Assembly: GCA_020724805.1 (NCBI GenBank)
Contig: DYGI01000001.1
Coordinates: 8,934-72,933 of the forward strand
DNA from: Candidatus Microgenomatus sp.
GTDB taxonomy: Bacteria; Patescibacteriota; Minisyncoccia; UBA6257; GWB1-50-10
Length of the DNA: 64,000 nucleotides
Direction of reading: 5' to 3'
Every line of letters begins with the position of its first letter. The first letter of the stretch is position 1. The notes below the pieces were generated by a model that searched no databases, was not told where the DNA came from, and saw nothing but the letters and a program-made list of their open reading frames with translations. This document shows, one piece after another, positions 39,501 to 39,775 of the stretch. The translations under genes and the position numbers were made by a program.

Positions 39501-39654
39501 CTGCGGAGGCGGAAGGTAGTCGAACGTCACTTCGTTTCACTCGCTCCCTGAAACCCTTCGGTTTCAGTACTTCCGGCACGGGAAACCTCTCTTCTACGGT
39601 TTCCCGACCCCTTCCCTGTTCGAATCCTTCCGTCCCAACTTTGTAAATTTCTTT
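39501..39654 (-). mobile_element. tRNA-flanking structured insert, family A (Ser copy)
   Basis: 39501-39516 is a 16-nt direct repeat of the tRNA-Ser 3' end (ctgcggaggcggaagg). Hairpins 39548-39567 and 39579-39606 are near-identical to the Pro copy. Confidence 0.5.
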
Positions 39655-39688
39655 CTCGATACCACAAGGATATCGTGAAAGAAACCTG

Positions 39689-39775
39689 CGGAGGCGGAAG
39701 GATTCGAACCTTCGAGGGGATTGCTCCCCTAACATCTTAGCAGGATGCTGCCTTAAGCCACTCGGCCACGCCTCC
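39689..39775 (-). tRNA. tRNA-Ser (anticodon GCU), long variable arm
   Basis: Acceptor GGAGGCG/CGCCTCC, anticodon loop CUGCUAA, 17-nt variable arm, T-loop TTCGAAT. Confidence 0.8.

What the first reader, a model, noticed from the sequence alone, without database searches (positions are those of the whole stretch)
39501..39775. Family A copy at tRNA-Ser(GCU); the upstream repeat extends into the 3' flank
aaagaaaYctgcggaggcggaagg occurs twice: 39491-39516 and 39679-39700, the latter being the tRNA-Ser 3' end plus 8 nt of flank. The repeated core therefore crosses the tRNA boundary, as attB cores of tRNA-targeting integrases typically do. Hairpins 39548-39567 and 39579-39606 are near-identical to the Pro copy, while the H2 loop differs (tctcctttgc versus tctcttctac), i.e. 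loop free, stem fixed.
Basis: seen in the sequence. Interest (0 to 1): 0.7.

Follow-up and report, generated by a model that had tools for sequence, protein, structure and literature searches.

The report
Guide-bearing mini mobile element at tRNA-Ser
The repeat next to tRNA-Ser is one end of a roughly 185-base, protein-less, hairpin-rich repeated element, found across candidate-phyla-radiation bacteria, that sits beside the ends of conserved genes carrying a built-in sequence complementary to that gene and a second copy of the gene's end; no described element family matched it.

Summary
AAAGAAAYCTGCGGAGGCGGAAGG occurs exactly twice (39493-39516, 39678-39701), against none expected by chance. 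It is not a classical integrase att pair.

On the minus strand the locus reads: tRNA-Ser(GCU), trailer hairpin, a 14-nt inverted copy of the tRNA T-loop and T-stem ("IGS"), a conserved core (GGGGUC, hairpin H2, GUGNCGGA, hairpin H1, variable H3), a degenerate T-loop, then an exact second copy of tRNA positions 61-73 plus trailer, ending at tRNA-Glu.

Two more copies lie in the window, after tRNA-Pro and tRNA-Arg. More than 130 lie in Patescibacteria genomes and metagenomes, at 17 tRNA families and at start or stop ends of housekeeping protein genes (EF-G, LepA, TypA, TrxB, ClpP, S9 and others).

H1 and H2 covary. The IGS pairs 95% Watson-Crick with the gene copy but about 50% with the element's own pseudo-motif. 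In protein genes the two gene-end copies differ almost only synonymously.

No Rfam family matches, there is no integrase, transposase or reverse transcriptase in the window, and no neighbouring gene recurs.

Best reading: a new family of non-autonomous, nucleic-acid-guided mobile elements. The catalyst and intermediate are unknown.

The parts
39688..39775 (-). tRNA-Ser(GCU), the intact host gene. Its positions 53-66 are the sequence matched by the guide.
   Evidence: ARAGORN; Rfam tRNA 56.3 bits.
39678..39701 (-). Proximal repeat copy (DR1): tRNA positions 61-73 plus 10 nt of trailer.
   Evidence: Exact pattern match; sequence.
39645..39687 (-). Trailer hairpin after tRNA-Ser (AGGUUUCUUUC...GAAAGAAAUUU). 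Its outer arms recur after the distal repeat copy.
   Evidence: RNA fold; flank comparison.
39618..39631 (-). IGS (guide-like segment) GGAAGGAUUCGAAC. It is the perfect reverse complement of tRNA-Ser positions 53-66 and forms the 5' strand of closing helix P1.
   Evidence: Sequence. Family profile: 89-100% complementary at positions 53-62 in 55 copies.
39572..39611 (-). Conserved core 5' part: GGGGUC, hairpin H2 (39579-39606), then GUGCCGGA.
   Evidence: Pattern has 3 matches in the window against 0 expected; covariance model hit at 81.4 bits; covariation.
39548..39567 (-). Hairpin H1 (CUGAAACC-GAAG-GGUUUCAG).
39526..39547 (-). Junction GGAG plus variable hairpin H3 region (GGGAGCGAGUGAAACGAAGUGAC).
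   Evidence: family comparison.
39517..39525 (-). Pseudo-T-loop GUUCGACUA: a degenerate copy of tRNA positions 53-60 and the imperfect 3' partner of the IGS.
   Evidence: Family: identity to the tRNA is only 20-60% at positions 53-59; 226/440 Watson-Crick pairs with the IGS.
39485..39516 (-). Distal repeat copy (DR2): an exact copy of tRNA positions 61-73 (39501-39516) plus trailer-like AUUUCUUUAGAAAUUU, ending at the first base of tRNA-Glu.
39412..39484 (-). tRNA-Glu(UUC), the downstream neighbour that bounds the duplicated block.
774..891 (-). Sister copy after tRNA-Pro(CGG): IGS 880-891, core 834-873, pseudo-T-loop GUUCGC 791-796, DR2 774-790. The 87-nt block 803-889 is 93% identical to the Ser copy (39541-39627).
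38347..38497 (-). Diverged copy after tRNA-Arg(GCG): IGS 38486-38497, core 38441-38478, pseudo-T-loop GUUCGC 38363-38368, DR2 38347-38362.

Best explanation
The repeat belongs to one copy of a previously undescribed family of small (about 110-250 nt), protein-less, structured repeated elements of CPR/Patescibacteria.

Each copy lies just outside the end of a conserved gene. On its own strand it consists of:
- A guide-like segment (IGS) complementary to a conserved motif near that gene end. For tRNAs this is G53 plus the T-loop and the first T-stem bases. For translational GTPases it is the AHVD/G1 codons.
- A conserved multi-helix core.
- An imperfect copy of the motif (pseudo-motif) that pairs weakly with the IGS.
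- A second copy of the gene segment from the motif to the gene terminus.

How I think it works (inferred, not shown):
- The element is mobilised in trans as a folded single strand, ssDNA or RNA-guided.
- The IGS base-pairs with the motif on the element-sense DNA strand of the target and so fixes the junction.
- The element's own pseudo-motif is the weaker internal partner that the target displaces.
- Strand exchange at the motif|gene-end boundary joins the element next to the gene while leaving a complete gene end on the gene side.
- This is the logic of attP x attB, but with a nucleic-acid splint in place of protein-read core sites. The closest parallel is the guide/cleavage-site pairing of IS200/IS605 ssDNA transposons.
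- Homology-dependent exchange starting at the junction would explain the exact-identity tract next to it.

What is unknown: the enzyme (a host or unlinked protein, or the core itself), the intermediate (circular or not), and which of the two gene-end copies travels with the element.

My estimates: about 0.6 that it is a guide-bearing mobile element of a new family, and about 0.35 that the specific ssDNA guide-and-strand-transfer mechanism is right.
For: Shown:
1. The repeat is non-random.
2. The window holds three copies after three different tRNAs. Each has its own tRNA's T-loop complement and 3'-end copy, and two cores are 93% identical.
3. Family breadth: 14 true hits in Patescibacteria genomes and about 120 metagenome loci. 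The covariance model gives 109 hits in 100 loci, often several per contig. Head-to-tail arrays occur, such as three units in L181.
4. The architecture recurs in about 60 loci. There are 55 non-redundant tRNA-linked copies at 17 tRNA families.
5. DR2 identity to the tRNA is 92-100% at positions 61-73 but 20-60% at 53-59.
6. The IGS is 89-100% complementary at positions 53-62. IGS:tRNA gives 416/440 Watson-Crick pairs against 226/440 for IGS:pseudo-motif, with recurrent tandem G.A.
7. In L181 the tRNA has an atypical T-loop (GUCCGAC). The IGS matches it perfectly, while the pseudo-motif GUUUGAU pairs with the IGS through three G.U.
8. H1 and H2 covary.
9. Protein-gene targets at either the 5' or the 3' end, on either strand: EF-G, LepA, TypA, TrxB, ClpP, S9, DeoC, RNR, Mur ligase, GH57.
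10. The duplicated gene ends stop at the start or stop codon and differ almost only synonymously: 10/10 in L141, 8/8 in L201, 7/7 in L229, 5/5 in L151, and GGG/GGA plus TAG/TAA in L161. Exact tracts adjoin the junction: 39 nt in L130 and 54 nt in L021.
11. One circularly permuted core exists (L126), and other cores share the same flank logic (L222, L135).
12. No Rfam family matches, the window has no mobility gene, and no neighbouring gene recurs.
13. Assemblies of related strains break inside the element or at tRNA-Ser.
Against: - No empty site or presence/absence polymorphism was found, so movement is inferred from copy number and target diversity alone.
- No catalyst was identified.
- There is no evidence of transcription, and no promoter was predicted. 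In most tRNA copies a terminator-like hairpin separates the tRNA from the element.
- Strand asymmetry of wobble pairs is only modest: G.U 57 against A.C 33.
- Evidence on which gene-end copy is element-borne conflicts. The distal copy is more conserved between genomes than the proximal one in 3 EF-G loci, and spacers are unrelated between related cores. Yet the distal copy has native-looking flanks, such as the tRNA-Ser-tRNA-Glu junction.
- The circular permutation rests on a single locus.
- The long IGS:gene palindrome could be maintained partly by DNA-level quasi-palindrome correction rather than by function.
Confidence: 0.6

Rival explanations
1. Remnant att sites (attL/attR) of integrase-mediated islands that integrated into tRNA genes and were later deleted to a stub, or a cis-mobilisable mini-element (CIME) moved by a tyrosine integrase encoded elsewhere.
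For: The duplicated block runs from the T-loop edge past the tRNA 3' end, like attL/attR. Protein-gene ends are also classical integrase targets. The two gene-end copies look like two alleles, as with attP-borne gene ends.
Against: The repeats are 185 nt apart with no ORF between them, and the window has no integrase. No integrase recurs near more than 130 copies. One conserved core serves at least 17 tRNA families and unrelated protein genes, so no fixed attP core exists. The helices covary, which does not fit sequence-read protein sites. Each copy carries an inverted, target-matched guide. Independent deletion to the same stub in hundreds of loci is implausible.
Confidence: 0.07
2. A non-mobile cis-acting RNA module of tRNA and mRNA loci. 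Read-through transcripts would fold so that the IGS pairs with the T-arm 3' half, extending the terminator into a long duplex. This would act as an RNase III or processing signal, a read-through sink, or release a small RNA with a tRNA-like 3' tail.
For: The IGS pairs best with the functional gene copy. The tRNA end, trailer and IGS form one long hairpin. The core is a covarying structured RNA-like fold.
Against: In the GTPase, TrxB and GH57 copies the element is antisense to the gene and upstream of it, so no common cis-RNA role exists. This model does not explain the duplicated gene ends with intact start or stop codons and synonymous-only differences. Nor does it explain multi-copy arrays, 93%-identical copies at different tRNAs, or presence at only 3 of the window's 18 tRNAs.
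Confidence: 0.1
3. A SINE-like retroelement. The element RNA, read through into the distal gene-end copy, would be reverse-transcribed by an RT encoded elsewhere, using the nicked target strand annealed to that tail as primer (target-primed reverse transcription). The duplication would then be a long target-site duplication.
For: The element's tail is identical to the target end and could anneal to a nicked target. CCA follows the discriminator more often in the distal copy (17/55) than in the gene copy (9/55). The window's DR2 ends exactly at the RNase P site of tRNA-Glu. The core is structured and RNA-like.
Against: The CCA frequency equals that of ordinary tRNA genes on the same contigs, about 23%. 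A fresh target-site duplication predicts identical copies that decay randomly, but the differences are almost all synonymous. No RT lies in the window or near any copy. No poly-A or other retro-signature is present.
Confidence: 0.13
4. Locally generated palindromic or duplicated DNA around terminators (replication template switching), with no specific element.
For: Long perfect palindromes follow most tRNAs, and the inverted copy extends them.
Against: A conserved, covarying 73-position core is shared by more than 130 loci from different CPR classes.
Confidence: 0.02

Closest known systems
Integrative elements with tyrosine integrases that target tRNA (T-loop sublocation) or protein-gene ends (attL/attR duplication)
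   Same: Both duplicate the gene segment from the T-loop to beyond the 3' end and leave the gene intact. Both also use ends of protein genes. In both, the two copies look like different alleles with an identity block at the crossover side.
   Different: The unit here is 185 nt with no integrase or any ORF. It has no fixed attP: one core serves many targets. It carries an inverted target-matched guide and a covarying multi-hairpin core.
IS200/IS605 ssDNA transposons and their non-autonomous PATE derivatives (established knowledge: TnpA Y1 HUH enzymes; cleavage sites C_L/C_R are read by base pairing with internal guides G_L/G_R)
   Same: Both are small and hairpin-rich. In both, the target sequence on the flank and a similar-but-not-identical sequence at the element's end are recognised by pairing with a sequence inside the element. 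Non-autonomous copies lack the enzyme.
   Different: The guide here is 11-21 nt rather than 4 nt. A gene-end duplication is present, whereas IS200/IS605 make none. No TnpA was seen near any copy, and the sequence and fold are unrelated. No match came from the Rfam families searched.
Group I / group II intron homing (internal guide sequence / EBS-IBS pairing)
   Same: Both have an internal guide that pairs with the conserved sequence at the insertion point. Both prefer conserved sites of tRNA and housekeeping genes. CPR genomes are intron-rich (PMC13011429).
   Different: There is no Rfam intron hit, and the core of about 100 nt is far too small. The element lies outside the gene, in either orientation relative to it. 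It is accompanied by a duplicated gene end and is not needed for, or removed from, the gene product.
Folded single-stranded att sites that use host enzymes (CTXphi/IMEX with XerCD; integron attC)
   Same: In both, an imperfect hairpin formed by two inverted segments constitutes the recombination site, and mismatches in the stem are conserved. The element encodes no recombinase.
   Different: The targets here are diverse gene motifs, not dif or attI. The R'/R'' (GTTRRRY) cores are absent. An additional conserved junction core is present.
Free-standing mobile ORFs or homing-endonuclease genes in organelles that bring a replacement gene terminus (for example Allomyces atp6; from my own knowledge, not checked here)
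   Same: Both insert near a gene end with a foreign allele of the terminus, leaving a displaced, still-coding-looking pseudo-terminus.
   Different: Those elements encode an endonuclease, and no guide or structured non-coding core has been described for them.
Type V-K CRISPR-associated transposons homing to tRNA genes with a delocalised crRNA (from my own knowledge)
   Same: In both, the element lies tens of bases downstream of a tRNA gene and carries a short guide matching that tRNA.
   Different: No Tn7 or Cas12k genes or transposon ends are present. The duplication is 20-70 nt rather than 5 bp. The element is more than 100-fold smaller.

Membership tests
tRNA-targeting tyrosine-integrase integrative element | Direct repeats (attL/attR) containing the tRNA 3' end | tested here: met
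tRNA-targeting tyrosine-integrase integrative element | Integrase gene inside or adjacent to the element | tested here: not met
   No ORF lies in the 185-nt unit. Pfam scans of about 50 window ORFs found no PF00589-like hit. No recurrent neighbouring gene in about 135 loci.
tRNA-targeting tyrosine-integrase integrative element | One attP core specific for one attB | tested here: not met
   The same core occurs at 17 tRNA families and about 10 protein genes.
IS200/IS605 / PATE | Subterminal hairpins, with cleavage sites read by an internal guide | tested here: inconclusive
   Hairpins and guide-to-flank pairing are present, but cleavage was not tested and the guide is much longer.
IS200/IS605 / PATE | No target duplication; a fixed 4-5 nt target | tested here: not met
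   Gene-end duplications of 14-71 nt and diverse targets.
IS200/IS605 / PATE | Y1 HUH TnpA in the genome | not tested
   Only 64 kb of the 571-kb contig was scanned, and no TnpA was found in it.
Group I or group II intron | Conserved catalytic core detectable by Rfam RF00028/RF00029 | tested here: not met
   No hit at the gathering threshold or at E<=10.
Known small self-cleaving ribozymes (hammerhead, twister, HDV-like, pistol, hatchet, hairpin) | Match to the family covariance model | tested here: not met
Integron attC | R''/R' core sites (RYYYAAC ... GTTRRRY) in an imperfect palindrome | tested here: not met
   P1 sequences are target-specific. For example CCCATTGCGGTG and TGTCTGCTCC do not fit.
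Diversity-generating retroelement (TR/VR) | Adjacent reverse transcriptase and adenine-specific TR/VR differences over about 100 bp | tested here: not met
   No RT found. The differences are synonymous and of all base types.
Retron | ncRNA with a1/a2 closing stem immediately followed by an RT gene | tested here: not met
   A closing stem is present, but no RT is adjacent in any locus.
New family (this report): CPR guide-bearing gene-end element | GGGGUC-H2-GUGNCGGA-H1 core, closed by a helix between a target-complementary segment and a pseudo-target, followed by a copy of the gene terminus | tested here: met
   The window's Ser copy scores 81.4 bits with model R1. All flank features are present.

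The most novel reading that the evidence does not exclude
The element is a natural, minimal, programmable DNA-insertion module. An 11-21 nt guide plus a weaker internal decoy of the target, attached to a roughly 75-nt conserved junction core, would suffice to direct strand exchange at any sequence matching the guide. The core would either be the catalyst itself (a new ribozyme acting through a small circular intermediate, as the permuted copy in L126 hints) or recruit a single host enzyme. It would then be a third kind of nucleic-acid-guided recombination system, alongside group II introns and IS110 bridge RNAs, and the first with no element-encoded protein.
Probability: 0.2. Interest if true: 0.92.

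Novelty: categorically new. Interest (0 to 1): 0.8.

Why it matters
If correct, CPR bacteria, with 0.5-1 Mb genomes, carry an abundant class of selfish DNA. It survives by parking beside the most conserved sequences in the cell (the tRNA T-loop, the GTPase G1 motif, ends of ribosomal, Clp and Trx genes) without breaking them.

Target choice is written in a short complementary segment, so it is readable and in principle re-writable.

This would add a new mechanism class to mobile-element biology. It would also explain assembly breaks and "pseudo-tRNA 3' halves" in CPR genomes.

It offers a compact scaffold for guided DNA insertion, and a direct test of whether small structured nucleic acids can drive recombination with host factors alone.

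Even if the mechanism turns out to be conventional, the family is a widespread, unannotated structured motif of more than 130 copies that should be added to RNA and repeat databases.

Tried and rejected
- Known RNA families: Rfam at the gathering threshold on the whole window and at E<=10 on 38300-39800 returned only tRNAs and noise.
- First genome scan pattern (GGGGTCGGGN{8,30}CCCGNGNCGGA): too loose. About 105 of 120 loci were chance hits in high-GC genomes. It was tightened for the metagenome scan.
- Viral contigs: 0 hits.
- Partner gene by neighbourhood: all-against-all clustering of 1,792 ORFs near the copies gave only target genes, syntenic housekeeping genes and a LAGLIDADG-like ORF in 6 loci about 3.8 kb away.
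- Partner gene in the window: Pfam scans found none.
- Empty site: contigs carrying the exact flanking GreA-like protein are the same genome, or break inside the element. Four homologues at 63-86% identity lie on contigs that end in tRNA-Ser or lack it. A flank-joining BLAST among all loci found only duplicate contigs.
- Mature-tRNA, tRF-3 or m1A58-stop origin of the distal copy: rejected. CCA is no more frequent than in ordinary tRNA genes of the same contigs, and many distal copies carry genomic trailer.
- Simple staggered-cut target-site duplication: rejected as a full account, because differences between the two gene-end copies are almost all synonymous and include conservative N-terminal variants.
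- The terminator hairpins as part of the mobile unit: not supported. Spacers are unrelated between cores that are 85-92% identical, and between copies at the same tRNA type.
- Hammerhead, HDV or hairpin-ribozyme motifs: sought by eye and not found.
- Literature: four full-text searches and two paper look-ups found no description.

Full report
**Observation.** The window is a CPR/Patescibacteria-type segment with 18 tRNA genes. It is identical to part of JGI metagenome contig Ga0246236_1000004, which is 570,864 bp long. The 24-mer AAAGAAAYCTGCGGAGGCGGAAGG occurs exactly twice, at 39493-39516 and 39678-39701. None of 100 dinucleotide-preserving shuffles gave a match. The second copy is the 3' end of tRNA-Ser(GCU) (39688-39775, minus strand) plus 10 nt of trailer.

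**Anatomy of the Ser copy, minus strand 5' to 3'.**
- tRNA-Ser.
- A 43-nt trailer hairpin (39687-39645).
- A 13-nt linker.
- GGAAGGAUUCGAAC (39631-39618), the perfect reverse complement of tRNA positions 53-66. I call this the IGS.
- AGGGAA.
- GGGGUC, hairpin H2, then GUGCCGGA (39611-39572).
- Hairpin H1 (39567-39548).
- GGGAGCGA and a variable hairpin H3.
- A degenerate T-loop, GUUCGACUA (39525-39517).
- An exact copy of tRNA positions 61-73 (39516-39501).
- AUUUCUUUAGAAAUUU, which resembles the outer arms of the first trailer and ends at the first base of tRNA-Glu (39484).

The IGS and the degenerate T-loop plus the 61-66 copy form a closing helix, P1, around a four-way junction. The fold has z = -4.7.

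**Other copies in the window.** The same layout follows tRNA-Pro(CGG) (IGS 880-891, core 834-873, distal copy 774-790). It also follows tRNA-Arg(GCG) (IGS 38486-38497, core 38441-38478, distal copy 38347-38362). Each has the T-loop complement and 3' end of its own tRNA. A covariance model finds only these three copies in the window: 81, 78 and 40 bits, with the next hit at 10 bits.

**Family.**
- A genome-collection scan gave 14 true copies, all in Patescibacteria: Saccharibacteria, Paceibacterota, Liptonbacteria and unclassified.
- A tighter pattern gave 120 metagenome loci and no viral contigs.
- The model finds 109 copies in 100 of those loci, often two or three per contig.
- In an 88-sequence alignment the invariant positions are GGGGUCGGG, CCCG.G.CGGA and the AACCG..GG of H1.
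- H2 and H1 are 93.6% paired, with 178 double-change cells against 51.5 +/- 5.4 in shuffles. The score falls sharply when partners are slid.
- Wobble asymmetry is modest: G.U 57 against A.C 33.
- Rfam 15 has no matching family, at the gathering threshold or at E<=10.

**Flank rules in 55 non-redundant tRNA-linked copies at 17 tRNA families.**
- The distal copy is 92-100% identical to the adjacent tRNA at positions 61-73 and 90% at C74.
- It is only 20-60% identical at positions 53-59, where recurrent substitutes appear (GUGAGAU, GUGAAAU, GUUCGC).
- Identity beyond +1 drops to about 50% and then to background. About a quarter of copies also share some trailer.
- The IGS is 89-100% complementary to the tRNA at positions 53-62, 81% at 63, about 55% at 65-67, and at background beyond. 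About ten copies have 16-21 nt of perfect complementarity.
- Over positions 53-60, IGS:tRNA is 416/440 Watson-Crick. IGS:pseudo-motif is 226/440, with a recurrent tandem A.G/G.A.
- In L181 the tRNA-Gly(UCC) has an unusual T-loop (GUCCGAC). The IGS matches it perfectly, while the pseudo-motif GUUUGAU pairs with the IGS through three G.U. Three units lie head to tail there, and the one farthest from the tRNA is the most decayed.

The IGS is therefore tuned to the real gene, and the element's own partner is a weaker mimic.

**Targets are not only tRNAs.** Copies lie at two kinds of protein-gene end.
- 3' ends of genes for ribosomal protein S9, ClpP, DeoC-like aldolase, ribonucleotide reductase, a Mur ligase and TrxB.
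- 5' ends, with the element on the opposite strand, of genes for EF-G, LepA, TypA, TrxB, a GH57 enzyme and a glycosyltransferase-like protein.

The IGS then matches a conserved coding motif, for example the AHVD/AHID codons of the GTPase G1 box or GGGPAG of TrxB. The duplicated block runs from that motif to the start or stop codon.

**The two gene-end copies differ almost only synonymously.**
- L141: 10/10 differences synonymous.
- L201: 8/8 outside the motif.
- L229: 7/7.
- L151: 5/5.
- L161: GGG/GGA and TAG/TAA.
- L130: a conservative N-terminal variant, MIYDLIII against MTYDLLLV.

Several loci have an exact tract next to the junction (39 nt in L130, 54 nt in L021), followed by an abrupt drop in identity. 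In all cases the gene body lies on the IGS-distal side of the proximal copy, whatever the gene's strand.

**What this excludes.**
- *A classical integrase island or its remnant.* The unit has no ORF. About 50 window ORFs are housekeeping (CCA-adding enzyme, RecG, PheRS, GatA, LigA, type IV pilus genes, ClpP, TyrRS, IF-2, LeuRS, MetRS and others), with no integrase, transposase or RT. No mobility gene recurs near about 135 loci. One core serves many unrelated targets.
- *A purely cis-acting RNA of tRNA operons.* The element is antisense to, and upstream of, its GTPase, TrxB and GH57 partners.
- *A simple staggered-cut target duplication.* This is excluded as the whole story, because the copies behave as two functional alleles.
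- *An origin from mature tRNA.* CCA follows the discriminator in 17/55 distal copies, no more often than in ordinary tRNA genes of the same contigs at about 23%. Many distal copies also carry genomic trailer.

**What remains open.** It is unclear which gene-end copy travels with the core.
- For the distal copy: in three EF-G loci it is more conserved between genomes (0.76-0.90) than the proximal copy (0.61-0.78), similar to the core. Spacers are unrelated between 85-92%-identical cores and between copies at the same tRNA type.
- For the proximal copy plus spacer: units repeat head to tail together with their spacer, and the distal copy has native-looking surroundings, such as the compact tRNA-Ser-tRNA-Glu junction.
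- No empty site or polymorphism was recovered.
- One locus (L126) has a circularly permuted core, with P1 placed in the H2 loop. Others (L222, L135) show the same flank logic with a different core or a guide against the acceptor strand. This hints at a circular intermediate and at a broader class, but n = 1 for the permutation.

**Mechanism (inference).** The four junction types are isosteric helices on the same IGS splint: gene motif|gene end, pseudo-motif|gene end, and their exchanged forms. This is the topology of attB, attP, attL and attR, with recognition by base pairing rather than by protein-read core sites.
- The weaker IGS:pseudo-motif pairing would let a target displace it.
- Exchange starting at the junction and running for a variable length would produce the exact tracts.
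- Because the GTPase-class targets are on the strand that is not transcribed into mRNA, the target must be DNA.
- The closest known logic is that of IS200/IS605 transposons, whose flank and end cleavage sites are read by internal guide sequences on folded ssDNA. Related logic is seen in host-enzyme-dependent folded att sites (CTXphi, attC). Membership in any of these families fails on tested features (see the membership table).
- I put about 0.6 on 'new family of guide-bearing, non-autonomous mobile elements' and about 0.35 on this particular single-strand guide-and-exchange mechanism. An RT-dependent route gets about 0.13.

**Literature.** Full-text searches for CPR/Patescibacteria structured RNAs, tRNA-linked elements and ribozymes found only work on group I introns in patescibacterial tRNA genes (PMC13011429) and general motif surveys (PMC5737381). 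Neither mentions this architecture.

**Verdict.** The att-like reading captures the geometry but not the nature of the element. On present evidence it lies outside every described family.

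Noticed in passing
L126:~9700-10000 (tRNA-Arg(GCG) locus): A circularly permuted version of the core. The H2 3' strand plus GUGUUGGA come first, and GGGGUC plus the H2 5' strand come last. The guide/pseudo-target helix is attached where the H2 loop normally is. Only one such copy was found.
   Followed up: partly
L222 (tRNA-Arg(GCG) 3' flank); L185 (tRNA-Pro(CGG) 3' flank); L135 (tRNA-Arg(GCG)): These share the flank logic (terminator, T-loop complement, about 100 nt, second copy of the tRNA 3' end) but have a different or shorter core. In L135 the guide pairs with the acceptor 3' strand instead of the T-loop. This suggests a wider class of such elements.
   Followed up: no
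window 610-758 and 49398-49546: Both tRNA-Ala genes (CGC and GGC) are preceded by a similar ~75-nt leader (149-nt arms, 75% complementary because the genes are on opposite strands). The leader contains a long A/T-rich hairpin.
   Followed up: no
window 4027-4106 and 15209-15288: An 80-nt direct repeat, 81% identical (TAAAACCGGCCTACGGCACC...). One copy lies between tRNA-Lys and recG. No Rfam match.
   Followed up: no
window tRNA genes; loci L008-L240: Most tRNA genes in these genomes encode C74 followed by A (N73-C-A-A/T/G) rather than CCA; only about 23% encode CCA. A CCA-adding enzyme/poly(A) polymerase-family gene with an HD domain sits at 1934-3556, overlapping tRNA-Arg(UCG).
   Followed up: partly
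L242, L243, L244, L245 (contig ends): Independent assemblies of the same or closely related strains end inside the element core or inside tRNA-Ser. This is consistent with the element acting as an assembly-breaking repeat.
   Followed up: yes
L227:1404-2312 and five other loci: A LAGLIDADG-like ORF family recurs within about 4 kb of copies in 6 loci. It probably belongs to nearby introns, and no link to the element was established.
   Followed up: no
L142:~1100-1250 (after the standard copy): A third copy of the tRNA-Gly 3' end, preceded by a partial core fragment (...GGGGGTCGGGG...GGTTCGAGA...). It is probably a decayed older unit.
   Followed up: no
window 39911-40375 and 42178-42678: Two GreA/GreB-family paralogues lie within 3 kb, flanking a methyltransferase-like gene and a thymidylate kinase. 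The arrangement is conserved in relatives (L244-L247).
   Followed up: no
window 17403-18279: Tandem pilin-like paralogues (137-nt repeat, 72% identical) within a type IV pilus cluster (PilB/PilT/PilC/PilM, prepilin peptidase).
   Followed up: no
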